Positions 5,327 to 51,183 of a stretch of DNA of 64,000 bases are shown here, in pieces. Origin of the DNA: an uncultured Gammaproteobacteria bacterium (GTDB taxonomy: Bacteria; Patescibacteriota; Patescibacteriia; Magasanikbacterales; GWA2-37-8); the NCBI GenBank assembly GCA_964540825.1, contig CAZINT010000002.1:128993-192992 (forward strand), written 5' to 3'. The position numbers and the translations under genes were made by a program. The notes below the pieces were generated by a model. That model saw only the letters and a list, made by a program, of their open reading frames with translations, was not told the DNA's origin and ran no database searches. How positions within the stretch are numbered: position 1 is the first letter of the stretch; the number at the start of each line of letters is the position of its first letter.

Positions 5327-5330
5327 AAAG

Positions 5331-16550: not shown

Positions 16551-17465
16551 CTATAGTAAGCGGGCATCTTTTTTTAACTGCGCAACACCTTCAGCTAGCT
16601 TAATGGTTGGTTTCCAGCCAAGCAAACGCTCCGCTTTAGCGTTATCCGCATGAGTGTATGGCATTTCACCAGCCAGTGCCGGCACAAAGATGGTGTCTCC
16701 GCCAATAAGTGCAGCTAATTCATTAACTGAGTGAGGGTCACCATTACCAACATTTATTACCTCCCCTTTTCCTACCGTATCCTTGGTCATCGCCAGTATG
16801 TTAGCTCTAACGATATCACTCACATGCGTGTAGTCGCGAGACATTTCTCCGTCTCCTCTAATCGTAAGCGGCTTGCCTTCCTGACGCAATTTTATAAACC
16901 GACCAATAACAAGCGCATATGCCCCTTCGGGGTCAAAATACGGCCCATACACATTAAAATAGCACAGAGCGACAGTTTCAAGACCATACAGCTCAGAAAA
17001 AACACGACAATATTCTTCGCCAATGAGTTTATGCAGTGCGTATGGACTCAAAGGCTTTTTAATTGACCCGTCTTCTTTAAACGGCCCCGGGGGCTGAATA
17101 CCATAGGCTGCAGAAGAAGTAGCAAACACTACGCGCTTCACTCCAGTATCGCGCGCAGCGATAAGCACGTTCAATGTACCGTTAACATTAACATCATGTG
17201 TCTCAAGCGGATTTTCGACGGAAAAAACTACCCGGGGCAGAGCCGCTAAATGGAAAATACCCTCGACCCCTACACAGGCTTTTTTAAGCTGTGCCAAGTC
17301 ACGAATGTCACCGGTAATATATTCAGCACCGGGTAAAATCCGGTCGGCTTTTTTACCACCGGCATAATTATCATACACTTTGACTGTGTTTCCTGCCTCA
17401 AGCAGGGCTTTCACTAAATTTGTTCCAATAAATCCCGCACCGCCGGTTACAAGATAGGTCGACAT
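16551..17465 (-). CDS. NAD-dependent nucleotide-sugar epimerase/dehydratase (SDR; UDP-hexose 4-epimerase-like)
   Basis: The likely start is MSTYLVTGGAGFIGTNL (the track ORF extends to 17522). Catalytic YxxxK is SPYALHK. Confidence 0.8.
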   Translation of the reverse strand: MSTYLVTGGAGFIGTNLVKALLEAGNTVKVYDNYAGGKKADRILPGAEYITGDIRDLAQLKKACVGVEGIFHLAALPRVVFSVENPLETHDVNVNGTLNVLIAARDTGVKRVVFATSSAAYGIQPPGPFKEDGSIKKPLSPYALHKLIGEEYCRVFSELYGLETVALCYFNVYGPYFDPEGAYALVIGRFIKLRQEGKPLTIRGDGEMSRDYTHVSDIVRANILAMTKDTVGKGEVINVGNGDPHSVNELAALIGGDTIFVPALAGEMPYTHADNAKAERLLGWKPTIKLAEGVAQLKKDARLL

Positions 17466-17475
17466 AGTAGTTGCA

Positions 17476-35611: not shown

Positions 35612-36175
35612 CTAGCGCGAGAGCTTGTACCCGAGATGAGGAAGGGAGCGGGTGGTCGCCGCGACCGAGAAGGTCTCGGTGGTCTCGCCGCCGAGGACGC
35701 GACCCAGCCAGTCTTCGAGCGGTATGCTGACGACCTCGATCTCGACCTCCTCGCTGTCGGGGGTGGGCTCACCCTCGAGCACGCACTCAAGTGCGAGGTA
35801 GAGCTGGACCCGTCCGCTCGAGTGTCGCGGGATGATGTCGACGTGTCCGAGGTCGATGAGCTGCCCCGCACGGTGGCCGGTCTCCTCCCTGACCTCGCGC
35901 CGCGCCGCCTCGTTGAGCGACTCTCCATCGTTGCAGTAGCCGCCCACGAGGCCGATCTGGATGCGGTCTGCACCCTGCTTGTACTCGCGTACGGCGAGCA
36001 CATTTAGATCGACAGTCACCGGCAGGACAACTACCGAATCCTGCAAGGTGTAGAGATAGAAATCATGCACCTTTCCGAACGGGTCCTCGAAGTCCTGGTG
36101 CACGATCTGCTTGCCATAGTGGCGCGGGCCTATGGGAACTGCTTCACCTACTTTTTTCCACCGTCGTACTGCCAT
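35612..36175 (-). CDS. NUDIX hydrolase with high-GC codon usage
   Basis: The Nudix box reads GGYCNDGESLNEAARREVREETG. The length is 187 aa. The GC content and GC3 are markedly higher than in neighbouring genes. Long antisense ORFs here are GC artefacts. Confidence 0.8.
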   Translation of the reverse strand: MAVRRWKKVGEAVPIGPRHYGKQIVHQDFEDPFGKVHDFYLYTLQDSVVVLPVTVDLNVLAVREYKQGADRIQIGLVGGYCNDGESLNEAARREVREETGHRAGQLIDLGHVDIIPRHSSGRVQLYLALECVLEGEPTPDSEEVEIEVVSIPLEDWLGRVLGGETTETFSVAATTRSLPHLGYKLSR

Positions 36176-36222: not shown

Positions 36223-36250
36223 AAAAAACCTGCTTTTTGTCAAGCAGGTT
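36223..36250 (-). terminator. Rho-independent terminator for SDR gene 36282..37274: ACCTGCTT–TTTGTC–AAGCAGGT, with T6 on the minus strand
   Basis: An 8-bp perfect stem. An A-run lies on the plus strand upstream, which is a T-run on the minus strand downstream. Confidence 0.55.
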
Positions 36251-36281: not shown

Positions 36282-37274
36282 TTATTTTTTTGGATGAGCC
36301 AGATACCATTCATACGTACGCCGCAAACCCTCTTCCAGAGATACTTCAGGCTTCCAGCCTACAAGCGACTGCAATTTACTTACGTCAGCCAAACGGCGTT
36401 TTACACTACCCTCAGGCGAATTTTCAATAACAATTTTTTCTGGCCGCCAGCCAATAATATCAAATAACCGGTCAGCCAGATCGCGAATTTTTATTTCATC
36501 AAAAGCACCAATATGCACCGTCTCAACCGGTAACGTATCTGTCTTTGGTGAATCCATCAAAACCTGCATAGCCCGAACCACATCATCGATATAACAGAAC
36601 GTTCGTGTATCATCGGCGCCAAAAATGGTAAACGGATCAGTCTTGGCCGCAGCTCTGAGACAAAACTCTGGAATAACGTGTTCGTAGCCTGCCCGTGGAC
36701 CATAAAAATTATGAGGGCGAACAATCACTGCGCGAAATTTATACTGAGCAGCATAATGAATTACAAACGGCTCCCCTACCAGCTTGCTAGCGTCATACGA
36801 AGCACGGGGGTTATAGGGGTCAGCAATGACGAGCGGTACTTTTTCCGGGGTTGGAATGGGCAGCACTCCAAAGGCTTCTAGCGCGCCTGCATACACTTCA
36901 CTCGAAGAAGTGAAGCAAAATTTGCCATCTGCACTTTCTTGCCTAAACCATTCGAGCATGTAAATCAGCGTCAGCGTGTTAATACGCAACGTCTCGTGGG
37001 GCATGGTATAAAAAAACTTGGTACCGTTCACTGCCGCTAAATGATAAACGTGATCATACCCACCACCAAATTCTTTATATGAAACAGGATTTGTTAAATC
37101 GAGATTTAAAAAGCGCACCCGCGGATCTTTGAGTACGGCCGACAAATCATCATCCATTACCCCTCGCTGCAAATTATCTGCTAAAACCAATTCTACCGCA
37201 GGATCTTGCAATAAATGCTTTGCCAAATGATGTCCGATAAAGCCAGCTCCGCCGGTAATAAGAACTTTTTTCAT
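36282..37274 (-). CDS. NAD-dependent nucleotide-sugar epimerase/dehydratase (SDR)
   Basis: MKKVLITGGAGFIGHHL. YxxxK reads YDASK. The length is 330 aa. Confidence 0.8.
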   Translation of the reverse strand: MKKVLITGGAGFIGHHLAKHLLQDPAVELVLADNLQRGVMDDDLSAVLKDPRVRFLNLDLTNPVSYKEFGGGYDHVYHLAAVNGTKFFYTMPHETLRINTLTLIYMLEWFRQESADGKFCFTSSSEVYAGALEAFGVLPIPTPEKVPLVIADPYNPRASYDASKLVGEPFVIHYAAQYKFRAVIVRPHNFYGPRAGYEHVIPEFCLRAAAKTDPFTIFGADDTRTFCYIDDVVRAMQVLMDSPKTDTLPVETVHIGAFDEIKIRDLADRLFDIIGWRPEKIVIENSPEGSVKRRLADVSKLQSLVGWKPEVSLEEGLRRTYEWYLAHPKK

Positions 37275-37285
37275 ACATTACTTAA

Positions 37286-38926
37286 TTAAGGCTTTTGTAA
37301 CCACAACCACAAATCTTTCGTATTTTCAACTTTGGAACTAACTACTCGAAGACCGGCATTTTGAGCAAGTTCTCGAGCTTGCTCGGGTGTTACTGAAACA
37401 CCATAAAACCAGCGTCGTTTATATATTTCCGGCCCGGTTCGCAGGTGAATTTTAGCATACCCCCCAGATACAAGGACGCGAGCGATCTCTTTTAAGTAGT
37501 CGCTGATAAGAATAGTGCTTGGCAAATATTTAAATACTTGATAGGCAAAAACAGCATCTACCGAAGCACTGGTAACGGACAAACTCTGTCCGTCTGTGGG
37601 CAACCACGTAACATTAGTGAGATTGTGAAGACGTTTTTGAGCAATCGCCAACATCCTCTCAGAGATATCAACAGCGAACACCTGAGCAAAATGTCGAGCG
37701 AGATTTTCAGTAAGGCGCCCAACACCCGAACCAATCTCAACTATTTTTTTATCTGAAAAAGCACCCGTTCTTTTAAGAATTTCGTCTTCACCAATTAATC
37801 GCGCGTAATCAGCTTCACCCGTTTCTTTTGCTTCGAACTCATCTGCCTTGCGGCCGCTTCTGGTATCCGGATTACTATAATAATACGGCTGATGCAGTGC
37901 AAAATCATTCCATCTATTCTTCACATCCTGGAGCGTACTATCACTGGTTATATACCTATCCACAAGGCGCCGGGCCGGGCGAAGCTTCGAGCGAACAAAG
38001 CGAATTGGCGGCAACAGATTAAATCGCTGCCACGACTGCAAAAGGTGCGTAGAAATTTGTTTAGGCGCATTCGAATAGTCCCACGTCGAAAACCATTGAG
38101 GTAATGTCTGATATTTTTGACTAAGCTCTTCGTGAAAAGTGTTCGATTCATAGGCTCCTTTGAGGAGGGGTATACGGCGGCCTTCACTTTCGGCCATACG
38201 CCTAAAGGCGCGCATATCTTTTGGTAAGCAGTGGCCGCCAAAACCGGTCCCATACCGCAAGTAACTCTTCTTTTCTAAAATAAAGTTTATTACTTCTTCA
38301 ATTTTCTCACGACTTTCCGCAGTATCCGGATTCATCATGCTATCCCCAAATTCATTCACAAAAGCGATGCGAACAGCGTTCCAGATATTAGACAAGTATT
38401 TAATATATGCTGCTTGCTCCGGAGTTCCTTCAAAAACTTTATAGGCCCGCGCTTTCCACTCCTCTAAAAAACCAGGTATTCCTTCAGGGACGCGACTACC
38501 GATAACAAAATAATACGGGTTAAGACATTCTTCTACCGCCCGAATTTCGTGTAAAAATTCTGGCACGTAATAATGAAACGGAAGCTTGGCGAGTGAAGTC
38601 GGTAAAATAGTGGAGCGCAAAATAACTTTTCCTTGCGCACTCGTGAGTTGTTCAAGCGCCTTTTCAATAAAGGTAATATCTTGCGTGCCATCCTCAGCAA
38701 CACGGTCCCCTACGCAAACAATATAATGAGTAGTGGGCGCATCGAATTCTAGGAGTGATTTAAGTACCGTTATTTTTTCGTACAGCTCGTAATACTTGTC
38801 TGAGTAATGGAATTTGGGCGTAATTACGTCATAAAAACCAACCTCATACCCCATTCGCGCCAGCGAGAGAGCATTTGCCTGTCCAACCCACCCAAAACCG
38901 ACGACAACGATTTTATTATTAGCCAT
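37286..38926 (-). CDS. Fusion protein: N-terminal UDP-glucose/GDP-mannose dehydrogenase-like domains (NAD-binding plus catalytic central domain) fused to a C-terminal class I SAM methyltransferase
   Basis: The N-terminal Rossmann motif is KIVVVGFGWVGQANA. The dehydrogenase central-domain motifs are IKYLSNIWNAVRIAFVNEF and GTGFGGHCLPKD (catalytic Cys). The C-terminal MTase motif I is IVEIGSGVGRLT and motif II is VDAVFAYQVF. The canonical UDP-binding C-terminal domain of the dehydrogenase family is absent. Confidence 0.7.
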   Translation of the reverse strand: MANNKIVVVGFGWVGQANALSLARMGYEVGFYDVITPKFHYSDKYYELYEKITVLKSLLEFDAPTTHYIVCVGDRVAEDGTQDITFIEKALEQLTSAQGKVILRSTILPTSLAKLPFHYYVPEFLHEIRAVEECLNPYYFVIGSRVPEGIPGFLEEWKARAYKVFEGTPEQAAYIKYLSNIWNAVRIAFVNEFGDSMMNPDTAESREKIEEVINFILEKKSYLRYGTGFGGHCLPKDMRAFRRMAESEGRRIPLLKGAYESNTFHEELSQKYQTLPQWFSTWDYSNAPKQISTHLLQSWQRFNLLPPIRFVRSKLRPARRLVDRYITSDSTLQDVKNRWNDFALHQPYYYSNPDTRSGRKADEFEAKETGEADYARLIGEDEILKRTGAFSDKKIVEIGSGVGRLTENLARHFAQVFAVDISERMLAIAQKRLHNLTNVTWLPTDGQSLSVTSASVDAVFAYQVFKYLPSTILISDYLKEIARVLVSGGYAKIHLRTGPEIYKRRWFYGVSVTPEQARELAQNAGLRVVSSKVENTKDLWLWLQKP

Positions 38927-39023: not shown

Positions 39024-40001
39024 TTAGCGAGTGACGCTAAAATCCTTTTGAAGCCGACGAGCTAAATCTTGGCTAAGCTTAGAGCTTCCTGAACTATTTA
39101 AATGGGCCGAATCATAAAAATCCGTATCGTTAAAAACTGGATAATCCGGTCCTGAAAGCGTGTAGTCAAAATACTCCAACCCCGCTTTTTCAGCCACTTT
39201 TTTTACATAGGCATGAATATCAGGGTAATTCGTAATTGTGTCCAAACGATCACGTCTCGTAGGCGAGGTAACCAAAACAACTTTGATATTTTGGGCTTTA
39301 GCCAATTGTATAACATCGCTTAGATACCTTAATTGCCGCGGATCACTGTCGGTTTCTAGGTGAACCGTGGTTGTTGCAATACGCTCACCATAGACCGGAA
39401 CCAGCGTTCCTTCGTTTTCGCGGTACCCTTTGTAAACAGTTATTCTTTTAAAATCATTAGTTGCAATTTTTGGAATGGCAAACAGGCCATCTTGCCAAGG
39501 TTTTATTGGTAACAAAAAGGGAGCCTGCTGATATTCTTTGGCAGCCATTAAAAAACTAATCTTATTTGTGCTTAGTTTCATATACGGAAAAGCGGCAAAA
39601 AAACTTTCGGTTAAATTTTGGTCTTCCCACGTCAACCAGTATGTCTCGAGCACGAGTACTTTCGGATGCTGTGTTTTAAGCGCCTCCCGCAAAGCAAAAT
39701 AGGTAACTAAGGGCGGTTGAAACTGACTTCCCAGGTTATAAGCTCTGATACCAAGCATATCTTCAAAAACTTTAGGGTTGAAAGCGTTATATGAGCGTGA
39801 TGAGCCAAAAAAAAGTAGGTCAACAGACTGAGCAGGCTGATGATAAAAATCTTCCCAATCTGGCACTCTCCCCTGCCCTACCGTACGCAAATGCTGACGT
39901 GGAATTGACAGAATAAAAGTAACTCCAAAACCAACCACGATCAAACCGACGCAGAAGAGCAGAAAATCAAAAATAAATTTTTTAGGTGGCGTCACATTCA
40001 A
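39024..40001 (-). CDS. DltD/AlgJ-like membrane-anchored protein, partner of MBOAT (SGNH-like fold), putative polysaccharide O-acyltransferase subunit
   Basis: An N-terminal TM anchor is followed by an extracytoplasmic domain of about 290 aa. The gene lies immediately downstream of an MBOAT gene with a 2-bp gap, as in the dltBD and algIJ operons. Confidence 0.5.
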   Translation of the reverse strand: MNVTPPKKFIFDFLLFCVGLIVVGFGVTFILSIPRQHLRTVGQGRVPDWEDFYHQPAQSVDLLFFGSSRSYNAFNPKVFEDMLGIRAYNLGSQFQPPLVTYFALREALKTQHPKVLVLETYWLTWEDQNLTESFFAAFPYMKLSTNKISFLMAAKEYQQAPFLLPIKPWQDGLFAIPKIATNDFKRITVYKGYRENEGTLVPVYGERIATTTVHLETDSDPRQLRYLSDVIQLAKAQNIKVVLVTSPTRRDRLDTITNYPDIHAYVKKVAEKAGLEYFDYTLSGPDYPVFNDTDFYDSAHLNSSGSSKLSQDLARRLQKDFSVTR

Positions 40002-40003
40002 TT

Positions 40004-41506
40004 TTAAAATTGGAAATAAATAAAACTACTCGTAGTAACAAATACCCCAAGAGCTCCCAAAGCGATCAAGAGGCCGTAGTACAAAGCCCACCGCCTCAGA
40101 CGAGACCATGTAGGTGCTACATACACCGTTTGATCAGCGGTCAAACGGTACGTTGATTCAAGAACCGGCAGTAAAAAAACAAGCAACACAATGACCATAA
40201 ATTTCGTCCGATCAACACCCAAAAAATATCCCAGAAACGTACCTGAGAACATAGATCTACCTCCTGATTCAATTACCTGTCTAAACAGCAGCGCGCTTCC
40301 GGTGAACAGATGGGTAACAATAAAAAGAGCTTCTTTCAAGGAAGCGGCCCGAAAAAAAATAAATGCCACTGAAACCAAAATAAGAGTATACATTCGTGCG
40401 AAGGCTGTATGCCAACCAGTAAAACGATGAGTTTTAAAAAGGGCAGATAGTTTGGCACGTAGTGTAATCGAGTATTCACTCGTTACACGATACAGACCAT
40501 GCAGCGCCCCCCAGACAATGAACGTCCAGGCAGCACCGTGCCACAAACCACTGAGCAAAAAAACCACAAGAATATTAAGACATTTACGCAGTCGTCCATA
40601 CCGATTTCCGCCGAGTGGAATATAGACATAGTCCCTAAACCAACTCGACAACGAAATATGCCAACGCTGCCAAAATTCAGCCATATTCTTGGCCAGATAA
40701 GGTCGGTTAAAATTAGTCATGAGTTTAAAACCCATCACCCGGGCTGCGCCAACGGCAATTTCTGAATAACCAGAGAAGTCACAATAAATTTGCACCGTAA
40801 AAAATATACTAGCAATCAAAAGCGGAATACCGGTATATGCCGCCGGATCAGCAAAGACACGATTCACAACTATTGCCAGCTGGTCAGCAATGACTATTTT
40901 TTTAAACAGCCCGGTCAACATGAGCCCAAGACCGCTGGCAACTTGTTGACGATCAAAAATATGTCGCTCGTGAAATTGGTGCAACATATTTTGCGGGCGT
41001 TCTATCGGACCAGCTACAAGCTGCGGGTAAAACATCACGTACAACGCATAAATACCAAGATGCCGCTCTGCTTTTTGTTTGCCCCGATATACCTCGATAG
41101 TATAACTCATTGCTTGAAAGGTGTGAAAAGAGAGTCCGATAGGCAGAAGGATATTGAGCGCGGGGAGCGAATAATTCCAATGTAAAAGCTCGGCTAAGCC
41201 GTTTATATTGGCCCCTAAAAAAGCATAGTATTTAAAAAACACTAGCACCCCGAGGTTAGAAATAATACTAAGAAGTAAATAGATTTTTCTTGTTCGCAGG
41301 CTCGGAGCTCCTTCAATAAGTATTCCGGCAATGTAATCGACGACAATCGTGCCCAGTAAAATAAAAATATACTTTGGCACGAAAAACATGTAAAAAAAGC
41401 AGCTCACTGTCAGAAGCAATACCCAGCGGTAGCGGTGCGGCAACAGAAAGTAAGCGACCGTGACGATCGGAAAGAAAATAAAAAATTGCACCGAACTGAA
41501 GGACAT
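40004..41506 (-). CDS. MBOAT-family membrane-bound O-acyltransferase (DltB/AlgI-like)
   Basis: 500 aa and polytopic. The conserved His region reads WQRWHISLSSWFRDYVYIPLGGNR. Confidence 0.85.
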   Translation of the reverse strand: MSFSSVQFFIFFPIVTVAYFLLPHRYRWVLLLTVSCFFYMFFVPKYIFILLGTIVVDYIAGILIEGAPSLRTRKIYLLLSIISNLGVLVFFKYYAFLGANINGLAELLHWNYSLPALNILLPIGLSFHTFQAMSYTIEVYRGKQKAERHLGIYALYVMFYPQLVAGPIERPQNMLHQFHERHIFDRQQVASGLGLMLTGLFKKIVIADQLAIVVNRVFADPAAYTGIPLLIASIFFTVQIYCDFSGYSEIAVGAARVMGFKLMTNFNRPYLAKNMAEFWQRWHISLSSWFRDYVYIPLGGNRYGRLRKCLNILVVFLLSGLWHGAAWTFIVWGALHGLYRVTSEYSITLRAKLSALFKTHRFTGWHTAFARMYTLILVSVAFIFFRAASLKEALFIVTHLFTGSALLFRQVIESGGRSMFSGTFLGYFLGVDRTKFMVIVLLVFLLPVLESTYRLTADQTVYVAPTWSRLRRWALYYGLLIALGALGVFVTTSSFIYFQF

Positions 41507-41538: not shown

Positions 41539-43320
41539 TTATTCCTCTACCTGATAAATAGCCAATTGACCATCGTCAAAAACCTTGTGCTTAAAAAAAC
41601 GGTCGAGCTGCCACTGTGGATCCAATTTTTTATCCCATACCGCATAGGTTATGCGGTATTTTTTTAAGTTTGTAAGTAAAGGGGCTTCTACAAACTCTTG
41701 ATACTCATTGATAAAGGTCTGATCCAATTCTGGCGGATAGCACTCGTAACAACCATTTTTAGCACGATAATAATTTCCAAAAATAAAACGACTGACATTC
41801 CTCCGATTAAGAGGATCAGAAAAATAATTCTTTGCCTCGCTGCTCGGAATGCCGTCTAGATACATATAGGTATAGAATGCTTCTCGAAGTCGCTCAGCTG
41901 CTACCAGATTTTCGCCGGCATACCCATTATAGTAAGCGTTTGCGGGCGTATATACCACCACAAGGGATGAAAAAACATCCGAAGAAAATACCGCATCATC
42001 CTTATTGGTATTTTGGCCGAGCCACTCGATAGCCCCGGCATAGCGCTGCCAGGCAACAAATTGGTCCTTTTGAACGCTGTACGACCAACGCTGGAATACT
42101 ATAGCGACAACTAAAAACAAAATACAGGCAAGGGCGGTGGCTACGGACAACCAACGCTCCGAAATTTTTTTAGATACCTGAGTAAAAAGTATGTACGTAA
42201 AAAGTAAACCCGCTAGTGGCGCCATATAATACCAATGGTAATGCGCTGGAATCGGCAAGGTTCGACCGGTAATGATTTGTTGATTAGAGACTATAAAAAT
42301 AGCTCCTAAAAAAGTCGTCATGAAAATACCAAACGTGTCAAAACGTCGGTATGCCAGCAGGAAGAGCACAAGTGCACCGCACCACACCAAGCTAATTACC
42401 GGGTCGTGGGTCACGACCTGCCCCGCCCTGACTACCAATTCAGGATAATAGGGCGAAGCGATTAATTTGAACGTATTAATAAAATAAGGAATGCCTATGA
42501 TAAGTCCACCTATGGTAATTAACGTAATGATCTTCAATTCTTTAAATCTGCGGCGCACTAAAAAATAAACCCATACCGCACCATTCATGACGAACAGAAG
42601 CGTGAAGGAAAAAACGTATGTATAAAAAGTTAGTCCTAAAAAAAGTGCAGCCAGGGCTCCGATACCCCATTTTTTTCGGGACTCCCAGGTTTCGAAGCGG
42701 GTAAGAACTGTAAAGAGCGCTACGAGATAGGCAAAAAAAACAAGATTACTTACTTGAGGGTTAATAGGTCGACCATACAATAAAAACTCTGCATCATTAG
42801 CTACAAAAACGCCGTGTCTTAGGAGGGGCAGCCAGGTATGCGGGTTGAGGAGCGCAGTGGTCGCCGGTGATAATAAAACAAAACAGGCTCCAATGAGCGA
42901 GACATCCTTACGCTTGGTCAGGAGAAGACCAAGGGCGTACACTAAAAAAAAGATGGTAAAGGGAAAAACAAATTTTGCCGCCAAATTAACATCTGGGACT
43001 GATAAACCCAGCAGCTTGCCTAGTCCCGCAGTAATAACAGCGGGGAGTGGTTGTTTGAGGTATGGCTGATCCTTGCCCTCATACATGTATACGTTGCCAA
43101 AAGAAAAATCCCCATTATACACCGCATGGATCTGCGCCAGATAGCTTGCCTCTCCATCAGTTCCCAGAAAGTCTATCCCTTTAAACGACGGATCAAACCT
43201 GAAAATAACACTAGGCACAGCGATGATAAACGCGCACAAAAACGCAAGCACAATAGCAAAGACATGCGCTTTGACCAGTACTCGGCACCTGAGCACACCC
43301 TCTTTAAGAGATACTGCCAT
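41539..43320 (-). CDS. Large polytopic membrane protein, hypothetical (possible GT-C-like polymerase or transferase)
   Basis: 593 aa with about 12 hydrophobic helices and a C-terminal soluble domain of about 150 aa. No confident motif was found. It lies adjacent to a polyprenol-P GT2. Confidence 0.4.
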   Translation of the reverse strand: MAVSLKEGVLRCRVLVKAHVFAIVLAFLCAFIIAVPSVIFRFDPSFKGIDFLGTDGEASYLAQIHAVYNGDFSFGNVYMYEGKDQPYLKQPLPAVITAGLGKLLGLSVPDVNLAAKFVFPFTIFFLVYALGLLLTKRKDVSLIGACFVLLSPATTALLNPHTWLPLLRHGVFVANDAEFLLYGRPINPQVSNLVFFAYLVALFTVLTRFETWESRKKWGIGALAALFLGLTFYTYVFSFTLLFVMNGAVWVYFLVRRRFKELKIITLITIGGLIIGIPYFINTFKLIASPYYPELVVRAGQVVTHDPVISLVWCGALVLFLLAYRRFDTFGIFMTTFLGAIFIVSNQQIITGRTLPIPAHYHWYYMAPLAGLLFTYILFTQVSKKISERWLSVATALACILFLVVAIVFQRWSYSVQKDQFVAWQRYAGAIEWLGQNTNKDDAVFSSDVFSSLVVVYTPANAYYNGYAGENLVAAERLREAFYTYMYLDGIPSSEAKNYFSDPLNRRNVSRFIFGNYYRAKNGCYECYPPELDQTFINEYQEFVEAPLLTNLKKYRITYAVWDKKLDPQWQLDRFFKHKVFDDGQLAIYQVEE

Positions 43321-46075: not shown

Positions 46076-47518
46076 TCAAGCAATTTTTTCGAGGGGTTTT
46101 TGGTTTTTTAGTTCGTTATTACTACTTTTTTTCTGGCAACATATGTATCCTTCGCATACTACGAGCAGCACTAAACCATTGACCGGGAAACGAAAACGGG
46201 CGTTAATACTCAATCCATTACTAATAGTTGTTAGAGAAAAATAAGCAATAATTAAAATAAACAACACCCTTGTAACAGATAATCGGCGGCGAATAAGACA
46301 GTGGAGCGTGGTAACCACAAATAGTACTCCCACCACAGTCCACACACACCGATCCAGAACGAGGGCTATCATGGCGGGCTGAAAAAGGGTGGCGAGCAAA
46401 GCATTCCTCGCTTCGGGGGTAAGGTGAAAGAACCGAACGATCTCTGAAGCAGCTATTTCCGGACGCTGTATGTCCCAAAGCGATAGCAAATCCAGAAGTC
46501 CGTCATGCGTAAAGAAAGTGGTTACGCTAATTGCAGCAACAATTATAAATTCCCGGGGATACTGCTTAATAGTTTCGATGGCTCGCTGCCGAAACCAAGG
46601 GGCCTTATCAACACTGAGCGAGGGAGTACCCGTTATCCCATCGGCCGCCAGATACTCTTGCTGAGCCACAGTAAAAGGTTGATGATTTTTGATGACTAAT
46701 AAAGATGGCGCCAAAGTTTCGTAGAGCACTTGCTCTTTAATCGCTGAATACGAAAATGTTTTAAACTCAACATAGTTACGAATCATCCAAGGGAAGACGG
46801 GTAGCACAGAGCATACTAAAAATAGCCCCATATACAACGTAAAAGCAGTTTGTTTTCGAATAAGACGATACCCAAGCCAAGCAATTGCCAACAAGGTACT
46901 TAAATACATGGTTGAAGGACGAAAAAGCGTTGCACACCCCAGCAGCACACCGGCAAAGTAAAGCGATCTGAACGAAGGCGTACTCCTAAAATTTTGTTCG
47001 CTACTTTGGATAAACCTCACCAGCTGAATAACAGCCGAGAGTAGGAGTAGGGTAAAAAATATTTCAGTAAAAAATCTGATTGATAAGCTTATGCTAAATG
47101 GATCGATCGCTAAAAAAATCATTGCCCCATATCTTAGGCGATCAGGTAGCGTTAACATGTGAGCGAGCTTCCCTACCAGAATAGGTAAATAACTGGCAAT
47201 TAGAATTTGCACCCCAAGCACAAACCAAATACTGTGTGTAAGGAACAGGCTCGCAACGATCAACGCCGGGTAACCGGGAGTACGCGTCGAATCAGGGATT
47301 AAAGTGGTTTGGTCTTGAGAGAAGACGTGGTGCTCATACAGATTGGAGGCAATTTCATAGTATCCATCAGCTTTTACTCTATGTATAAATTGGTTCGTGT
47401 CAAAGTTAGTATGCGCGAAGGTAATACAGCCAACTGCTAGGCGCAAAAATAAACCTAACAAAAAAATATAGAAAGCAGCATGAGTCGCCATTTTTTTACC
47501 CACCGCTTGCAGTATCAT
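46076..47518 (-). CDS. GT-C family membrane glycosyltransferase (ArnT/PMT-like)
   Basis: 480 aa and polytopic. A charged motif lies in the first extracytoplasmic loop (RVKADGYYEIASNLYEH). It is adjacent to a polyprenol-P GT2. Confidence 0.55.
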   Translation of the reverse strand: MILQAVGKKMATHAAFYIFLLGLFLRLAVGCITFAHTNFDTNQFIHRVKADGYYEIASNLYEHHVFSQDQTTLIPDSTRTPGYPALIVASLFLTHSIWFVLGVQILIASYLPILVGKLAHMLTLPDRLRYGAMIFLAIDPFSISLSIRFFTEIFFTLLLLSAVIQLVRFIQSSEQNFRSTPSFRSLYFAGVLLGCATLFRPSTMYLSTLLAIAWLGYRLIRKQTAFTLYMGLFLVCSVLPVFPWMIRNYVEFKTFSYSAIKEQVLYETLAPSLLVIKNHQPFTVAQQEYLAADGITGTPSLSVDKAPWFRQRAIETIKQYPREFIIVAAISVTTFFTHDGLLDLLSLWDIQRPEIAASEIVRFFHLTPEARNALLATLFQPAMIALVLDRCVWTVVGVLFVVTTLHCLIRRRLSVTRVLFILIIAYFSLTTISNGLSINARFRFPVNGLVLLVVCEGYICCQKKSSNNELKNQKPLEKIA

Positions 47519-48654
47519 ACAGAGTGTTTATTATATAACAAAGAAATAATAATTTTTGCCCGATTCGGCCAGCTGTAGAGACGCGCCTTGACCGGCAACT
47601 GCTGAGCTTTTAACGCATAAGCAGGCAAATTACTCAGCATCTTGGTAATTGCTGCGGTCAGCGACTCCACGCTATCGGGAGTAAAAAAAATTACTTCTTC
47701 AGCTGTAACCACTTCTTTTAAAGAAGGAAGGTCGGCAACTACCATAGGAATACCTGCGGCCAAATATTCAAATAACTTCATGGGTGAAGTGAAGTGTGAA
47801 GAAATCTTTTCCTGAGCGCTATTGGGAAGCACGGCAATATCGGCAGCTTTGAGCCAGAGCGGTATACGACTGCGCTCTTGCCACCCAACAATATGCAAAC
47901 CGGTATGCTGGTATTTCTTTTGAAAGTCCGCGACATCTTGAGACGTACCGCCAACAATATACACATGCGCTGCACTGGGCAAAAATACCGTTGATTGCGC
48001 CAATAAATCCGCTCCTTTCCAAGCGTATAAATGGCCGGTATAGATAATAACCGTTTGATCCAAAGGAACTCCAAGTACTGTCCGGCATTGGGCACGTGAC
48101 AGGGGTGGATTAAAATTTTCAACATCCACCCCTTCGCGGGCAATAACAATTTTCTCAGCCCGAGTCCCCTGCTCTACGAGCACAGTCTTTATTCCCTGGC
48201 TGATAACTACCACCCCGGAAGAACGTTTCCAAACCTGTTTATGCCAGAACAATCCTGTTTGAGGAATAGTATGTGCTTCATAAAATACTCGTTTGGAAAA
48301 CAAACTTAAAATCCAAGCAACACTTGCATCGCGGGTATAATACGCTGCATACTTATTCCGCAACACGAACCACAGAACGCTCAGGTTAAACGTAAAAGTT
48401 TCCAGCCAAAAAGCAGCTTTTTTAAAACGGCTCGTCGCTAAAAAATCCAAACACCATACTCGTATAATAGTAAAGGGGTTCGGAAGCTCATAAAAGGTAA
48501 AAACATCTTCGCTCAAATAGTTATGTCTCTTGGCTATAAGCAAATCAACTCTCTGACCTTCCATTTGCAGCGATTCAACAGTTTTTACAATCTGCCAACC
48601 ATGAGCTTTTTCAGTTGGCAGTCGTATGTTGGCGATATACAGCACATCCTTCAT
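47515..48654 (-). CDS. Glycosyltransferase family 4
   Basis: The C-terminal EX7E-like region reads KLFEYLAAGIPMVVADLPSL. There is a 4-bp overlap with the downstream gene. Confidence 0.8.
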   Translation of the reverse strand: MKDVLYIANIRLPTEKAHGWQIVKTVESLQMEGQRVDLLIAKRHNYLSEDVFTFYELPNPFTIIRVWCLDFLATSRFKKAAFWLETFTFNLSVLWFVLRNKYAAYYTRDASVAWILSLFSKRVFYEAHTIPQTGLFWHKQVWKRSSGVVVISQGIKTVLVEQGTRAEKIVIAREGVDVENFNPPLSRAQCRTVLGVPLDQTVIIYTGHLYAWKGADLLAQSTVFLPSAAHVYIVGGTSQDVADFQKKYQHTGLHIVGWQERSRIPLWLKAADIAVLPNSAQEKISSHFTSPMKLFEYLAAGIPMVVADLPSLKEVVTAEEVIFFTPDSVESLTAAITKMLSNLPAYALKAQQLPVKARLYSWPNRAKIIISLLYNKHSV

Positions 48655-48657
48655 ACG

Positions 48658-49323
48658 CTAATTATTTACGGCCGTAAAAAAATGACCGAGCGGAAACTTG
48701 GCCGCATTCATCCGCGGACGGAACTTACCAATAATTATGTCTAACCAGCGAGCCAAAGGAATTGCTCCAATTTTAATAAGGCGCGGCATGACCGGTTCAA
48801 GTTGCGACCAGGCGGCTGTAAACGGGCCTTTGCCAAAGGGCCGAATAATAACTTCTTTAAAACCAATATTGGTAAAAATAGTAAAGAGCGTTTCACTGGT
48901 ATAGCGCCAATAATCATGCGGGTCAGGATGGTATGCAACAAGGAATGGCACTGCGCCCAGTATAGTTCCACCAGGCTTTAGAATGCGGCGAACTTCCTTA
49001 AGGACCCATTCATAATTATAAATATGCTCAAGCACGTTGAACATAAGTACTGTATCACAACTCGCGTCAGCATAGGGAAGCGGATCTTTTTCAAGATTAA
49101 TTTCTTTACCTCCTTGCACTCCCCCCTCAAAACCAAGGTCAAGGCATTCTACTGTTACTACAACATCTTTTTTTAAATACCGATGATAGCTCGCGAGCTT
49201 TACGCCACTACCAATATCAATTGTTTTTCCACGAATAGTGTAATGAGAACTTTCAATATTCATAAGGAGTCGGTATACATCTTTACCGCGCCAGATCTCA
49301 TGTGTGTCTTTGAATATGTGCAT
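48658..49323 (-). CDS. Class I SAM-dependent methyltransferase
   Basis: Motif I is TIDIGSGVK, and an ...ILKPGG... motif follows. The length is 221 aa. Confidence 0.65.
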   Translation of the reverse strand: MHIFKDTHEIWRGKDVYRLLMNIESSHYTIRGKTIDIGSGVKLASYHRYLKKDVVVTVECLDLGFEGGVQGGKEINLEKDPLPYADASCDTVLMFNVLEHIYNYEWVLKEVRRILKPGGTILGAVPFLVAYHPDPHDYWRYTSETLFTIFTNIGFKEVIIRPFGKGPFTAAWSQLEPVMPRLIKIGAIPLARWLDIIIGKFRPRMNAAKFPLGHFFTAVNN

Positions 49324-49326
49324 ATT

Positions 49327-51183
49327 TTATTTTTTAAAAAATTCAGTATACCAGACTTGCCACATGACAACCGCCCAAATGCTATTTAAATTATAACGCT
49401 TACCAGAGCAATGATCCTGCCACATTTTTTGAACACCCGCTCTATCAAACAAAGCCTCGTCAAGATTGCTCGGAGCAATAATCTCTGAAACCACATCTTT
49501 TAAATCACCCCGCAACCACTTGGCCATTGGTGTAAACCACCCACGTTTTTTTTGATTGAGTACGTGTGCCGGCAGGTAGGGCATGATGGCTTCTCGCCAA
49601 ATTGTTTTACCTTGAAAGTTGCGCGGAGTACTTTGCAGTATATTAATTTTCCAAGCAGTAGGAATACGGTACGCCAGCTCTACAAGACGCCTGTCGAGTA
49701 TGGGAACACGTTCTTCCAGGCCAAATGCCATAGTCATAGTATCGGTACGCTGCAGGGACTCATCAACCAGCCAACTTTGGCGATCGATATTCATAAATTG
49801 CTTCTCAAAATCCACATTTTTGTTTTCTTTAAAATAACGTTTGTTGAAATGTTCCGCGACGAGCGCAGAATCTCTATAGTGAGGTTTAAGAAATTGCGCT
49901 ACCCCTCGAGCGTCTTGAGCTAAAAAAGCAACGACACGTTCAGCGTCAGGTGACAGATTACTCTTAGCTGCTAAGGCAGTATGCCCAGTGGTTTGTAAGA
50001 GTGCCGCAAAAACCCTTCGCAGTGACTGAGGAAGCAGTTGGTATTTACTTAACAAACGACTGTAATAATAACGCGGATAGCCTCCGAAGAGCTCGTCAGC
50101 ACCATCGCCTCCCAAAACTACGGCTACTTGTTTTTTAGCTGCTTGTGCAAGCAAAAAAATTGCACCGGCAGTTGGGTTGAAATTGGGCTGATCCAAATGC
50201 CAGGCAATTTGAGAAAGATTATTTTTAATGTCTTTGGCTGAAACCACCAGTTCGTGATGATCGGTCGCGTAATAGGCTGCCGTCTTTCGAGCCAAAACAA
50301 AATCAGCGTTAAATTTATTACTGTCTTCCGGTATATCAAAACCAACTGAAAATGTTTTTACCGGGCCAGTACTATATTTTTTTGTTACCCCAACTATGGC
50401 GGTAGAGTCTAATCCCCCACTTAAAAAAACACCCACAGGACGATCAGAAATTAATTGACCTCGCACCGCATCATCAAATACGGCAGCAATTTGCTGAGCA
50501 GCTTCTCGGCGATTTTTTAAATTAGTGAAATTAGTGACTTGCCAATACCGCGTTACCTGCAATTTTCCTTGTTTCCACACAGCATAATGAGCCGCAGGCA
50601 ATTTAGAAATTCCTTCAAAAAGGGTCTGGGGTTCTGGAATGTACAGCAAATTAAAAAAGAAGGTCGTCGCTTCTTTGTTAATACTTTTCGGAACACCGGC
50701 GGCGAGCAAGCTCTTAATTTCAGAAGAAAAAAATAGTTTTCCCTGGTTAATTGTATAATATAAGGGTTTAATACCCATCTGATCGCGGGCTAAAAAAAGT
50801 TCGGATGTCGCAGTATCCCAAATAGCTAAAGCAAAGATACCGTTGAATTTGTCAAGACATGCCGGTCCATATTCCCGATAGGCATACAAAATTACTTCAG
50901 TATCACTCTCGGAAACAAACGTATATTTTTTTTGTAGTTCCGCCTTCAATTCCGCGAAATTATAAATCTCTCCATTAAAAATAATAATAAAACGACCTTC
51001 AGCGTCGCGCATAGGCTGACGTCCGCGCTCAGACAAATCAATAATAGAAAGCCTGTCATGACCAAAAGAGACTCCATCAGCGCACCAAAAATCAGTCTGA
51101 TCAGGACCGCGATGCTTGATGCATGCATTCATTTTTTGAATGAGTGCCTCGTCTTTAAAACTGAAACCATTAATACCGCACAT
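49327..51183 (-). CDS. asnB: Asparagine synthetase (glutamine-hydrolysing) family amidotransferase
   Basis: The N-terminus MCGINGF carries the catalytic Cys2. The PP-loop is SGGLDS. The length is 618 aa. Its context in a glycan locus suggests a WbpS-like sugar amidotransferase rather than housekeeping AsnB. Confidence 0.8.
   Translation of the reverse strand: MCGINGFSFKDEALIQKMNACIKHRGPDQTDFWCADGVSFGHDRLSIIDLSERGRQPMRDAEGRFIIIFNGEIYNFAELKAELQKKYTFVSESDTEVILYAYREYGPACLDKFNGIFALAIWDTATSELFLARDQMGIKPLYYTINQGKLFFSSEIKSLLAAGVPKSINKEATTFFFNLLYIPEPQTLFEGISKLPAAHYAVWKQGKLQVTRYWQVTNFTNLKNRREAAQQIAAVFDDAVRGQLISDRPVGVFLSGGLDSTAIVGVTKKYSTGPVKTFSVGFDIPEDSNKFNADFVLARKTAAYYATDHHELVVSAKDIKNNLSQIAWHLDQPNFNPTAGAIFLLAQAAKKQVAVVLGGDGADELFGGYPRYYYSRLLSKYQLLPQSLRRVFAALLQTTGHTALAAKSNLSPDAERVVAFLAQDARGVAQFLKPHYRDSALVAEHFNKRYFKENKNVDFEKQFMNIDRQSWLVDESLQRTDTMTMAFGLEERVPILDRRLVELAYRIPTAWKINILQSTPRNFQGKTIWREAIMPYLPAHVLNQKKRGWFTPMAKWLRGDLKDVVSEIIAPSNLDEALFDRAGVQKMWQDHCSGKRYNLNSIWAVVMWQVWYTEFFKK

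What the first reader, a model, noticed from the sequence alone, without database searches (positions are those of the whole stretch)
37286..38926. Unusual fusion: a UDP-glucose-dehydrogenase-like enzyme missing its UDP-binding C-domain, fused to a SAM methyltransferase
The first 300 or so residues have the NAD-binding Rossmann motif and the catalytic-centre motif GGHCLPKD of the UDP-Glc/GDP-Man dehydrogenase family. The usual C-terminal nucleotide-sugar-binding domain is replaced by a linker and a complete class I SAM methyltransferase domain. A separate canonical dehydrogenase is present at 17476–18894. Coupling a sugar dehydrogenase to a methyltransferase suggests formation of a uronic-acid methyl ester or another oxidised and methylated sugar, or a moonlighting architecture. 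The fusion could also be an assembly or annotation frameshift artefact joining two genes. I saw no internal stop, and the track gives one 546-aa ORF.
Basis: partly seen in the sequence, partly recalled or inferred. Interest (0 to 1): 0.7.

Follow-up and report, generated by a model that had tools for sequence, protein, structure and literature searches.

The report
Truncated sugar dehydrogenase fused to methyltransferase
This is a real gene, conserved across many candidate-phyla-radiation (Patescibacteria) bacteria, that joins a sugar-oxidising enzyme lacking its usual nucleotide-gripping domain to a methyl-adding enzyme; nobody has tested what it does.

Summary
Window 37286-38926 (-) is one 546-aa ORF containing a UDP-glucose/GDP-mannose-dehydrogenase N-terminal and central domain, no C-terminal UDP-binding domain, a helical linker and a complete class I SAM methyltransferase.

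It is not an artefact. More than 120 full-length relatives (44-69% identity) share the architecture, and the identical ORF occurs in a second assembly.

The same clade contains more numerous stand-alone forms (about 300-345 aa) with neither domain, and these occupy the deepest branches, so the domain loss probably came first and the fusion is a later add-on.

All six catalytic residues of human UGDH and the NAD-specificity Asp are invariant in 25 fused and 46 short forms.

In about 85% of loci the gene sits beside an extended SDR. That SDR is usually closest to UDP-glucuronate decarboxylase and occasionally looks like a uronate 4-epimerase. A DegT aminotransferase, a sugar C-methyltransferase and glycosyltransferases often lie nearby.

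Best reading: an active NAD+-dependent sugar 6-dehydrogenase with remodelled substrate anchoring feeds the neighbouring SDR, and the fused methyltransferase modifies an intermediate of the same pathway. The methyl acceptor cannot be inferred; a uronate methyl ester is possible but unsupported.

The parts
37286..38926 (-). Whole 546-aa ORF: C-domain-less UGDH-like dehydrogenase fused to a class I SAM methyltransferase (the stop codon is 37286-37288).
   Evidence: AlphaFold model with mean pLDDT 92.8.
38477..38926 (-). NAD-binding Rossmann domain, aa 1-150: G10-x-G12-x-x-G15 followed by Q-A-N-A, D33 (the NAD-specificity Asp), and R104-S-T106.
   Evidence: Pfam PF03721. Invariant residues. Residue roles taken from hUGDH (PMC3129169).
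38132..38476 (-). Central helical (dimerisation/catalytic) domain, aa 151-265, carrying K176, N180, C233 and D237. P122-EFLHE-127 lies just upstream in the N-terminal domain.
   Evidence: Pfam PF00984, 57.7 bits. All catalytic equivalents are 100% invariant in 25 fused and 46 short forms.
38216..38239 (-). Catalytic-centre motif GGHCLPKD (aa 230-237), containing the Cys233 nucleophile.
   Evidence: Read directly from the sequence. G231, C233, L234, P235, K236 and D237 are invariant and H232 is at least 90% conserved in 120 relatives.
38012..38131 (-). C-terminal helical extension of the dehydrogenase module (aa 266-305), shared with the stand-alone short forms. It contains the clade-specific LPxWFSxW motif (S280, W282) followed by a basic amphipathic helix.
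   Evidence: Alignment of short and fused forms, conservation, amphipathicity and charge. pLDDT is only about 64 at aa 280-300.
37874..38011 (-). Linker helices found only in the fusion (aa 306-351), with conserved R312, W339, N346 and Y349.
   Evidence: Absent from short forms. Predicted helical with pLDDT 83-93. Conservation.
37289..37873 (-). Class I SAM-dependent methyltransferase domain (aa 352-546): motif I G399-x-G401-x-G403-R404 and the acidic D420 at the end of beta-2.
   Evidence: Pfam PF08241/PF13649, domain model with pLDDT 90, PDB profile and Foldseek hits, conservation.
36282..37274 (-). Conserved partner gene: a 330-aa extended SDR (called SDR330 in this report). Its start codon is 11 nt after the fusion's stop codon. 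Catalytic residues are S124, E126, Y160 and K164.
   Evidence: Best PDB hit is human UDP-glucuronate decarboxylase (E 2.5e-30). Family consensus. Adjacent in 23/25 fusion loci and 36/49 short-form loci.
36227..36250 (-). Terminator-like hairpin (9-bp stem plus a T-run) just downstream of the SDR gene, marking the likely 3' end of the transcription unit.
   Evidence: This is a consensus scan only, not evidence of function.
41539..43320 (-). Recurrent upstream neighbour: a 593-aa polytopic membrane protein (roughly 11-13 hydrophobic segments plus a soluble C-terminal domain) with no Pfam or NCBIfam match.
   Evidence: Relatives lie within 8 kb in 16/25 fusion loci and directly upstream in L001, L003 and L007.
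34421..35497 (+). DegT/DnrJ/EryC1-family sugar aminotransferase, a recurrent member of the gene block.
   Evidence: Present in 22/25 fusion loci.
33109..34362 (+). NDP-sugar C-methyltransferase (Methyltransf_13, Methyltransf_23 and Methyltransf_14 domains), a recurrent member of the gene block.
   Evidence: Present in 16/25 fusion loci.
31832..33028 (-). GT4/GT1-family glycosyltransferase, a recurrent member of the gene block.
   Evidence: Present in 13/25 fusion loci.

Best explanation
SHOWN: The gene encodes a genuine, conserved two-module protein. Module 1 (aa 1-305) belongs to a clade of the UDP-glucose/GDP-mannose dehydrogenase superfamily found almost only in Patescibacteria among the genomes sampled. 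It keeps the NAD+ site and the full catalytic set (Thr, Glu, Lys, Asn, Cys, Asp), lacks the alpha/beta domain that anchors the UMP part of the substrate in canonical enzymes, and ends instead in a Trp-rich motif and a basic helix. Module 2 (aa 352-546) is an intact class I SAM methyltransferase of a subfamily that, in the loci examined, occurs only fused to module 1.

INFERRED: Module 1 still carries out the NAD+-dependent four-electron oxidation of a sugar primary alcohol to a carboxylate, through Cys233 thiohemiacetal and thioester intermediates. The substrate is most likely an NDP-hexose, held by the conserved central-domain loop together with the new C-terminal tail. The uronate product is passed to the co-transcribed SDR, which is either a UDP-glucuronate-decarboxylase-like enzyme or, in some genomes, a uronate 4-epimerase-like enzyme. 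The resulting 4-keto or epimerised sugar is then C-methylated, transaminated and transferred by the other genes of the block. The fused methyltransferase methylates an intermediate or product of this same pathway. Its acceptor atom (O, N or carboxyl) is not determined.
For: Real and conserved: 414 hits were found, and all 120 listed are full length with the same Pfam domain set at 44-69% identity. The identical ORF is present in a second assembly.

Catalytic competence: D33, T106, E123, K176, N180, C233 and D237 are invariant in 120 relatives and in 25 fused plus 46 short forms. They correspond to hUGDH Asp36, Thr131, Glu161, Lys220, Asn224, Cys276 and Asp280 (PMC3129169).

Family assignment: every PDB sequence hit and every listed fold hit is a UGDH-family enzyme.

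The dehydrogenase module works without the methyltransferase: stand-alone forms of about 300-345 aa have the same motifs.

Pathway context: an extended SDR is the nearest neighbour in about 85% of 74 loci. SDR330's best solved relative is human UXS1, and it carries the S-x-E, Y-x-x-x-K and Arg positions that align with T118, E120, Y147, K151 and R277 of UXS1 (those residue roles are from my own knowledge). In L048 and L070 the neighbour's strongest named-by-function relatives are 6zl6/6zla (179 bits), which I believe from memory to be UDP-glucuronate 4-epimerase. The 11-nt gap and the terminator-like hairpin after the SDR gene indicate co-transcription.

Methyltransferase integrity: G399, G401, G403 and R404 are invariant and D420 is nearly so, and the domain model is confident. 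No fused-type methyltransferase occurs as a separate gene in short-form loci.
Against: In canonical enzymes the UMP moiety is anchored primarily by the C-terminal domain, so binding of a nucleotide sugar without that domain has no precedent. No activity has been measured. The TIGR03026 score (107.6) is below its cutoff (189.8). SDR330 scores only slightly better against UXS (109 bits) than against generic epimerases and 4,6-dehydratases (100-106 bits), and its best NCBIfam model is dTDP-glucose 4,6-dehydratase, far below cutoff, so its role as a uronate decarboxylase is not established. The relative orientation of the two modules is uncertain (pTM 0.68). The window also encodes a canonical UGDH, so a second uronate-forming enzyme is not obviously needed.
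Confidence: 0.55

Rival explanations
1. Uronic-acid methyl-ester synthase. The dehydrogenase makes an NDP-hexuronate and the fused methyltransferase esterifies its carboxylate. This would also protect the sugar from decarboxylation once the SDR forms a 4-keto group.
For: Fusion of two enzymes often signals consecutive steps. There is a precedent: the Haloferax volcanii N-glycan contains a hexuronic acid methyl ester made with the UGDH AglM and the SAM methyltransferase AglP (PMC3827465). The methyltransferase domain has several invariant basic residues (R404, R432, K492, R496), which is compatible with an anionic acceptor. This methyltransferase subfamily is found only fused to this dehydrogenase.
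Against: AglP acts after the sugar has been transferred to the lipid-linked glycan, and it is a separate protein. Short forms keep the same SDR, DegT and C-methyltransferase partners with no methyltransferase. The usual partner looks like a decarboxylase or dehydratase-type SDR, and a decarboxylase needs a free carboxylate. Sequence and fold neighbours of the methyltransferase are generic N-, O- and C-methyltransferases, and carboxyl methyltransferases are not preferred.
Confidence: 0.2
2. The clade has switched to a non-nucleotide substrate. It oxidises a sugar already attached to a polyprenyl phosphate or to a glycan at the membrane surface, which would explain the loss of the UMP-anchoring domain. 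The methyltransferase then acts at that same level, as AglP does.
For: The C-domain is absent in every member. 74% of members have an 18-residue stretch in the tail with hydrophobic moment >= 0.45 and net charge >= +3, against 1.1% of such stretches in the protein body. Two short forms (L041, L055) end in a TM-like segment. A polytopic membrane protein with a GT-C-like layout is a frequent direct neighbour, and a polyprenyl-phosphate sugar transferase (PgfS/ArnC-like GT2) is in the window.
Against: The most constant partners (SDR330, DegT, TcaB9-type C-methyltransferase) belong to families that act on soluble NDP-sugars. The maximum hydrophobic moment of the tail is no higher than elsewhere in the protein. 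The GT2 lies within 8 kb in only 6/25 and 4/49 loci. No UGDH-family enzyme is known to use a lipid-linked substrate (own knowledge).
Confidence: 0.15
3. Assembly, sequencing or annotation artefact: two adjacent genes were joined by a frameshift or a lost stop codon.
For: Nothing beyond the unusual architecture. Read-level data could not be examined.
Against: All 120 listed relatives at 44-69% identity keep one continuous ORF of about 532-586 aa. 24 species-level genomes carry it. The linker contains invariant residues (S280, W282, W339). The identical ORF is in a separate Logan assembly. The model is confident through the junction apart from aa 280-300.
Confidence: 0.01
4. The dehydrogenase module is a non-catalytic NAD-binding, dimerising or regulatory scaffold for the methyltransferase or the SDR (a pseudoenzyme or moonlighting role).
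For: The substrate-anchoring domain is lost, the Pfam N-domain score is weak (32 bits), and the protein scores below the NCBIfam cutoff.
Against: All six catalytic residues and the NAD-specificity Asp are strictly invariant across sequences as little as about 36-45% identical to the query, which is not what relaxed selection on an active site would give. Stand-alone forms have no methyltransferase to scaffold.
Confidence: 0.07

Closest known systems
UDP-glucose 6-dehydrogenase / GDP-mannose 6-dehydrogenase family (hUGDH 2q3e, P. islandicum 3vtf, C. jejuni Cj1441 7kws, P. aeruginosa AlgD 1mfz; Pfam PF03721 + PF00984 + PF03720)
   Same: The Rossmann NAD domain, the central helical domain, the Asp that sets NAD+ specificity and all six catalytic residues are the same. 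These are the best and only PDB sequence and fold matches (3vtf E 7.4e-17 by sequence and 4.8e-19 by Foldseek; 7kws aligns over 306 columns at 3.8 A).
   Different: There is no PF03720 UDP-binding domain. The clade has its own invariant residues (H126 in PEFLHE, H232 in GGHCLPKD, and the Q-A-N-A that follows the glycine motif), a new C-terminal LPxWFSxW motif and a basic helix. Identity to the canonical UGDH in the same window is only 22%. In a search of 1.84 billion representatives there is a clear score gap between this clade (E <= 1e-26) and canonical enzymes (E >= 1e-20).
AglM (UDP-glucose dehydrogenase) plus AglP (SAM methyltransferase) of the Haloferax volcanii N-glycosylation pathway
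   Same: A sugar 6-dehydrogenase and a SAM methyltransferase cooperate on one sugar residue, and the product is a hexuronic acid methyl ester (PMC3827465).
   Different: They are two separate proteins. AglM is a canonical three-domain enzyme, and AglP methylates only after transfer to the dolichol-phosphate-linked trisaccharide.
UGDH -> UDP-glucuronate decarboxylase pathways (UGDH with UXS for UDP-xylose; Ugd with ArnA and ArnB for UDP-Ara4N)
   Same: A 6-dehydrogenase gene sits next to an SDR of the UXS/ArnA type, often with a DegT-family 4-aminotransferase, an ArnC-like GT2, a deacetylase-family gene and a polytopic membrane protein with a GT-C-like layout. Bifunctional fusion within such a pathway also has a precedent in ArnA (own knowledge).
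   Different: The dehydrogenase lacks its C-domain. A TcaB9-type C-methyltransferase is part of the block, and the fusion partner is a methyltransferase rather than a formyltransferase. None of the partners reaches an Arn equivalog cutoff.
TviB-TviC-type pairs (NDP-sugar 6-dehydrogenase followed by a uronate 4-epimerase)
   Same: In some short-form loci (L048, L070) the dehydrogenase is followed directly by an epimerase-type SDR whose second-best PDB matches (6zl6/6zla, 179 bits) I believe to be UDP-glucuronate 4-epimerase. The window itself has a canonical pair of this kind at 16551-18894.
   Different: The dehydrogenase is the two-domain form. Most loci carry the SDR330 type, which has a Ser-x-Glu motif rather than an epimerase-type motif.

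Membership tests
UDP-glucose/GDP-mannose (nucleotide-sugar) 6-dehydrogenase family | N-terminal Rossmann NAD-binding domain with GxGxxG and an Asp that specifies NAD+ | tested here: met
   PF03721 at aa 5-145, 32.1 bits against a cutoff of 27. G10, G12, G15 and D33 are invariant. D33 corresponds to hUGDH Asp36.
UDP-glucose/GDP-mannose (nucleotide-sugar) 6-dehydrogenase family | Central all-helical dimerisation domain | tested here: met
   PF00984 at aa 171-263, 57.7 bits against a cutoff of 25.4. The model shows long helices at 169-197, 203-217 and 233-247.
UDP-glucose/GDP-mannose (nucleotide-sugar) 6-dehydrogenase family | Catalytic set Thr, Glu, Lys, Asn, Cys (nucleophile) and Asp | tested here: met
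   T106, E123, K176, N180, C233 and D237 are invariant in 120 relatives and in 71 locus-derived sequences. The reference residues come from PMC3129169.
UDP-glucose/GDP-mannose (nucleotide-sugar) 6-dehydrogenase family | C-terminal alpha/beta UDP(NDP)-binding domain (PF03720) that anchors the nucleotide | tested here: not met
   No PF03720 hit. The TIGR03026 alignment stops at profile position 296 of 413. No stand-alone C-domain ORF exists in the window. Short forms also lack it.
UDP-glucose/GDP-mannose (nucleotide-sugar) 6-dehydrogenase family | Score above the curated family cutoff (TIGR03026, 189.8 bits) | tested here: not met
   107.6 bits. The window's canonical enzyme scores 264.6 bits.
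UDP-glucose/GDP-mannose (nucleotide-sugar) 6-dehydrogenase family | NAD+-dependent two-fold oxidation of an NDP-sugar C6 alcohol to the uronate | not testable with these tools
   Requires an enzyme assay.
Class I SAM-dependent methyltransferases (Methyltransf_11/25) | Rossmann-like seven-stranded fold, with a score above the Pfam gathering cutoff | tested here: met
   PF08241 69.5 bits against 21.2, and PF13649 68.1 bits against 27. Domain model pLDDT 90 with alternating strands and helices. Foldseek hits to many SAM methyltransferases at E about 1e-13.
Class I SAM-dependent methyltransferases (Methyltransf_11/25) | Motif I (E/D-x-G-x-G-x-G) and an acidic residue at the end of beta-2 that binds the SAM ribose | tested here: met
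   The motif VEIGSGVGR is present, with G399, G401, G403 and R404 invariant and D420 at least 90% conserved.
Class I SAM-dependent methyltransferases (Methyltransf_11/25) | SAM binding and methyl transfer | not testable with these tools
   Requires biochemistry.
Hexuronate carboxyl O-methyltransferases (AglP-like) | Sequence relationship to AglP or to another characterised carboxyl methyltransferase | not tested
Hits to BioC, Tam and Mtf2 models are weak and no stronger than hits to N- and O-methyltransferases. PDB neighbours are non-specific.
Hexuronate carboxyl O-methyltransferases (AglP-like) | Methyl-ester product | not testable with these tools
   Requires analysis of the product.
UDP-glucuronate decarboxylase (UXS/ArnA-type SDR), considered for the partner gene 36282-37274 | Extended-SDR fold with Thr/Ser-x-Glu, Tyr-x-x-x-Lys and a conserved Arg | tested here: met
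   S124, E126, Y160, K164 and R294 align with hUXS1 T118, E120, Y147, K151 and R277 and are conserved in 57 orthologues. The roles of those UXS residues are from my own knowledge.
UDP-glucuronate decarboxylase (UXS/ArnA-type SDR), considered for the partner gene 36282-37274 | Specific membership: closer to UXS/ArnA than to other SDR subfamilies, or above an equivalog cutoff | tested here: inconclusive
   The best PDB hit is UXS1 at 109 bits, but epimerases and RmlB score 100-106 bits. NCBIfam PRK11908 scores 72.7 against a cutoff of 294, and dTDP-glucose 4,6-dehydratase scores 135 against 365.

The most novel reading that the evidence does not exclude
The C-domain-less clade may be the first UGDH-superfamily enzymes that do not use a nucleotide sugar. 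On this reading they oxidise a polyprenyl-phosphate-linked or glycan-bound hexose at the membrane surface, held there by the Trp-rich motif and the basic amphipathic tail. In the fused forms the attached methyltransferase would immediately convert the new carboxylate to a methyl ester at the lipid-linked stage, as the separate enzyme AglP does in Haloferax. A gentler version of the same idea is that a short basic helix and a Trp motif are enough to replace a whole nucleotide-binding domain.
Probability: 0.15. Interest if true: 0.8.

Novelty: new variant of a known kind. Interest (0 to 1): 0.55.

Why it matters
UGDH-family enzymes are textbook three-domain proteins in which the third domain holds the nucleotide of the substrate. 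Here an entire, well-conserved clade has dropped that domain and kept every catalytic residue. It comprises at least 70 species-level genomes, about 25 clusters at 50% identity and more than 400 proteins. This raises a concrete, testable question about how substrate recognition was rebuilt, or whether the substrate class changed.

The clade sits in the largest surface-glycan gene clusters of candidate-phyla-radiation bacteria, whose cell-surface chemistry is essentially unknown and probably matters for their lifestyle attached to other cells. The fusion also ties an otherwise anonymous methyltransferase subfamily to a uronic-acid step.

In practice these proteins are currently annotated only as 'methyltransferase domain-containing protein', so the dehydrogenase function is invisible in annotations.

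Tried and rejected
1. Artefact hypothesis: rejected.

2. A split gene supplying the missing C-domain: tblastn with the C-domain of the window's canonical UGDH found only that gene itself.

3. Recent duplication of the window's canonical UGDH: rejected, since identity is only 22%.

4. A split version of the methyltransferase next to the short forms: an HMM of the fused domain found no stand-alone counterpart. The best other ORF scores 58 bits against 220-300 bits for fused domains. The single 270-bit hit, in L083, lies on a contig where the match starts at the contig edge, so it is probably a truncated fusion.

5. Inferring the methyl acceptor from sequence or fold neighbours: uninformative. 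Phosphoethanolamine N-methyltransferases, TleD, NodS, AtmM and DhpI all score alike.

6. Literature searches for a UGDH-methyltransferase fusion or a C-domain-less UGDH found nothing relevant. The Cj1441 structure paper was not in the searchable library.

8. Cluster-member look-up gave no names or accessions for the window's proteins.

9. tRNA and Rfam scans gave no taxonomic marker.

10. My first pass at SDR distances mislabelled genes that overlap by a few bases as 'upstream', and its motif search failed. Both were corrected with an alignment.

11. The hydrophobic moment of the tail on its own is not exceptional, so membrane association remains only a lead.

12. I had no access to model coordinates, so I could not check whether the SAM pocket faces the dehydrogenase active site.
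Full report
OBSERVATION. Window 37286..38926 on the minus strand is a single ATG-initiated ORF of 546 aa with no internal stop. Pfam places a UDPG_MGDP_dh_N domain at aa 5-145 (32.1 bits, cutoff 27), the UDPG_MGDP_dh central domain at aa 171-263 (57.7 bits) and Methyltransf_11/25 at aa 395-491 (about 69 bits). There is no UDPG_MGDP_dh_C domain. The NCBIfam model for nucleotide-sugar dehydrogenases (TIGR03026) aligns aa 5-265 to profile positions 2-296 of 413, with E 5.9e-31 but below its cutoff, so the last third of the family profile is missing. The motif GGHCLPKD is at aa 230-237. The description is therefore correct.

NOT AN ARTEFACT, AND NOT ANOTHER FAMILY. A search of 5.8 billion proteins gave 414 hits. 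All 120 listed are 532-586 aa, cover 97-100% of the query at 44-69% identity and carry the same Pfam set. Most of those that have an organism name come from Patescibacteria (Magasanikbacteria, Peregrinibacteria, Giovannonibacteria, Paceibacterota); a few are labelled only 'bacterium'. They are annotated only as 'methyltransferase domain-containing protein'. The identical protein is encoded on an NCBI contig of 248,779 bp and on a separately assembled Logan contig from run SRR11567520, with the same neighbours. The linker itself contains invariant residues (S280, W282, W339). All 14 PDB sequence hits of aa 1-350 are UDP-Glc, GDP-Man or UDP-ManNAc dehydrogenases. The 50 best Foldseek hits of a confident model (mean pLDDT 92.8) are all UGDHs.

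THE CATALYTIC CENTRE IS INTACT. The hUGDH structure paper lists six conserved active-site residues (Thr131, Glu161, Lys220, Asn224, Cys276, Asp280), names Asp36 as the determinant of NAD+ specificity, and states that the UMP part of the substrate is anchored primarily by the C-terminal domain (PMC3129169). The equivalents here are D33, T106, E123, K176, N180, C233 and D237. They are invariant in the 120-sequence alignment and in 25 fused plus 46 short sequences taken from genomes. The clade also has its own invariant residues: Q-A-N-A after the glycine motif, H126 in PEFLHE, H232 next to the Cys, Y222, N262 and S280/W282.

THE FUSION IS THE YOUNGER FEATURE. Searching aa 1-350 against 1.84 billion cluster representatives gave about 25 clade members (E <= 1e-26). 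After a gap, canonical 400-450-aa enzymes appear from about 1e-20. Several clade members are only 270-320 aa. A scan of one genome per species returned 79 loci. Apart from a few weak hits of 26-29% identity (Halobacteriales, Dehalococcoidia, Tepidiforma) and three MAGs labelled 'uncultured Gammaproteobacteria' whose label I could not verify, all are Patescibacteria. About 24 of these loci carry the fusion and about 45 carry a stand-alone ORF of roughly 300-345 aa that matches residues 5-282 at 48-57% identity. Pfam sees only the N-terminal and central domains in these short forms. They align with the fusion up to about residue 305, including the LPxWFSxW motif and one further helix, and then stop. 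In a neighbour-joining tree the deepest branches are short forms, and the fusions fall in a few adjacent clades with a few short forms nested among them. Loss of the UDP-binding domain therefore defines the whole clade, and the methyltransferase was added later in part of it. It does not 'replace' the missing domain. An HMM of the fused methyltransferase found no stand-alone counterpart in any locus: 58 bits at best, against 220-300 bits for fused copies.

STRUCTURE. The 'linker' is predicted as helices (253-272, 292-304, 306-326, 332-351), with lower confidence only at aa 280-300. Foldseek aligns the whole fusion collinearly with three-domain UGDHs, but at about 15 A rmsd. The methyltransferase therefore occupies the sequence position, but not the spatial position, of the lost Rossmann-like domain. 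The dehydrogenase part alone superposes on Cj1441 at 3.8 A over 306 columns. The pTM of 0.68 means the orientation between the modules is uncertain. The methyltransferase domain modelled alone (pLDDT 90) resembles many small-molecule class I methyltransferases equally well, including phosphoethanolamine N-methyltransferases, TleD, NodS, AtmM and DhpI. Its acceptor therefore cannot be read from homology.

GENOMIC CONTEXT. The window is one large surface-glycan cluster. It encodes glycosyltransferases of the GT1/GT4 and GT2 families, a LegB-like dehydratase, a nucleotidyltransferase, a DegT aminotransferase, a C-methyltransferase, MBOAT, a pyruvyl transferase, an AsnB-like amidotransferase and several methyltransferases. 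The fusion's stop codon is 11 nt from the start codon of a 330-aa extended SDR, and a terminator-like hairpin follows that gene. Across loci, an orthologue of this SDR (350-550 bits) lies within 8 kb in 23/25 fusion loci and 36/49 short-form loci, usually directly adjacent. Eleven further short-form loci have a different epimerase-type SDR. A DegT aminotransferase (22/25), a TcaB9-type C-methyltransferase (16/25), a GT4 (13/25) and an unannotated polytopic membrane protein (16/25) recur with the fusion. An AsnB-like amidotransferase (20/49) is more frequent with the short form.

THE PARTNER SDR. Its best solved relatives are human UDP-glucuronate decarboxylase (E 2.5e-30), although generic epimerases and 4,6-dehydratases score only slightly lower. 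Its family consensus, FTSS[N/S]E[A/V]YAG ... Y-x-x-[T/S]-K ... RPHNFYGPR, has the Ser-x-Glu motif of decarboxylases and dehydratases, not the motif of 4-epimerases. In L048 and L070 the neighbour of the short form best matches 5u4q (236 bits, deposited as a dTDP-glucose 4,6-dehydratase) and next matches 6zl6/6zla (179 bits, deposited as 'Epimerase domain-containing protein'), which I believe from memory to be Bacillus cereus UDP-glucuronate 4-epimerase. A 6-dehydrogenase next to an enzyme that consumes uronates is the classical arrangement, as in UGDH-UXS, Ugd-ArnA and TviB-TviC. This is the main reason to think the truncated enzyme still makes a uronic acid.

MECHANISM PROPOSED. Shown: the architecture, its conservation, the intact catalytic and SAM-binding residues, and the gene pairing. 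Inferred: module 1 oxidises the C6 alcohol of an NDP-hexose to the acid through Cys233. The nucleotide would be held by the retained central-domain loop (Y222-L-R224-Y225, all conserved) together with the new Trp motif and basic helix, which could act as a lid. [quoted passage not shown] The product then goes to the SDR, and the resulting sugar is C-methylated, transaminated and transferred. Module 2 methylates some intermediate of this route.

RIVALS. The first is carboxyl methyl esterification, which has the AglM/AglP precedent (PMC3827465). It sits awkwardly with a decarboxylase-like partner and with the short forms, which have the same partners and no methyltransferase. The second is a switch to a lipid- or glycan-linked substrate at the membrane. 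Supporting it, 74% of tails contain a stretch that is both amphipathic and basic, against 1.1% of stretches in the protein body, and two short forms end in a TM-like segment. Against it, the constant partners belong to families that act on soluble NDP-sugars.

NOVELTY. I found no description of a UGDH-family clade lacking the nucleotide-binding domain, nor of this fusion. The literature library is incomplete, so this is absence of evidence only. I rate it a new variant of a known kind, of moderate interest. The chemistry is probably familiar, but the way the substrate is recognised, and perhaps the substrate class, is not.

Noticed in passing
window 41539-43320 (-): A 593-aa protein with about 11-13 hydrophobic segments and a soluble C-terminal domain of about 170 aa has no Pfam or NCBIfam match. 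Relatives lie directly upstream of the fusion in several other genomes. The layout resembles GT-C glycosyltransferases such as ArnT, but no homology was shown.
   Followed up: partly
window 39024-41506 (-): An MBOAT acyltransferase and a weakly DUF1574-like 325-aa protein sit between the 593-aa membrane protein and the fusion. In L001, L003 and L007 those two genes are directly adjacent, so this looks like an inserted O-acylation pair.
   Followed up: no
window 47515-51183 (-): A three-gene module (GT1, a small 221-aa methyltransferase and an AsnB-like glutamine amidotransferase) recurs next to the dehydrogenase in many loci (AsnB in 20/49 short-form loci). AsnB-like enzymes amidate uronic acids in some O-antigen pathways (own knowledge), so this may be another consumer of a uronate.
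   Followed up: partly
window 16551-18894 (-): A canonical three-domain UGDH is followed by a TviC-like (UDP-GlcNAcA 4-epimerase-like) SDR. This genome therefore has both a standard and a truncated dehydrogenase, each paired with an SDR.
   Followed up: partly
window 2001-6000 and 34001-36000: GC content rises to 0.51-0.53 against a background of about 0.42. The first patch contains two tRNA-Pro genes (2809-2883 and 4769-4843). The second covers the DegT and NUDIX genes and produces spurious overlapping ORFs on both strands (35362-36007).
   Followed up: no
L073 1156-3228 (+): A 690-aa ORF joins a GT4/GT1 glycosyltransferase in frame to a short-type dehydrogenase module. It could be a second kind of fusion or a read-through. 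Only one example was seen.
   Followed up: partly
L027 and L028, within 8 kb of the fusion gene: A second, short (275-285 aa) paralogue of the dehydrogenase module lies near the fused copy, so some genomes carry both forms.
   Followed up: no
L041 9992-11008 and L055 9986-11011 (+): Two short-form proteins end in a hydrophobic, TM-like segment (FLVLAAAIVVIDAILLL and LKIIVAIVIIWSALYLL) that the other members lack.
   Followed up: partly
L040, L045, L046, L050, L051, L069, L075, L078 (upstream of the short form): Two tandem SDR330-type genes followed by a C-methyltransferase are arranged divergently from the dehydrogenase. This suggests two paralogous SDR steps in those genomes, for example an oxidation/decarboxylation and a ketoreduction.
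   Followed up: no
L003 11026-11814 (-): A formyltransferase (Formyl_trans_N) gene sits next to the C-methyltransferase and DegT pair in a Peregrinibacteria locus. Together with the ArnC-like GT2 and the deacetylase-family gene in the window, this recalls the Arn (Ara4N) pathway.
   Followed up: no
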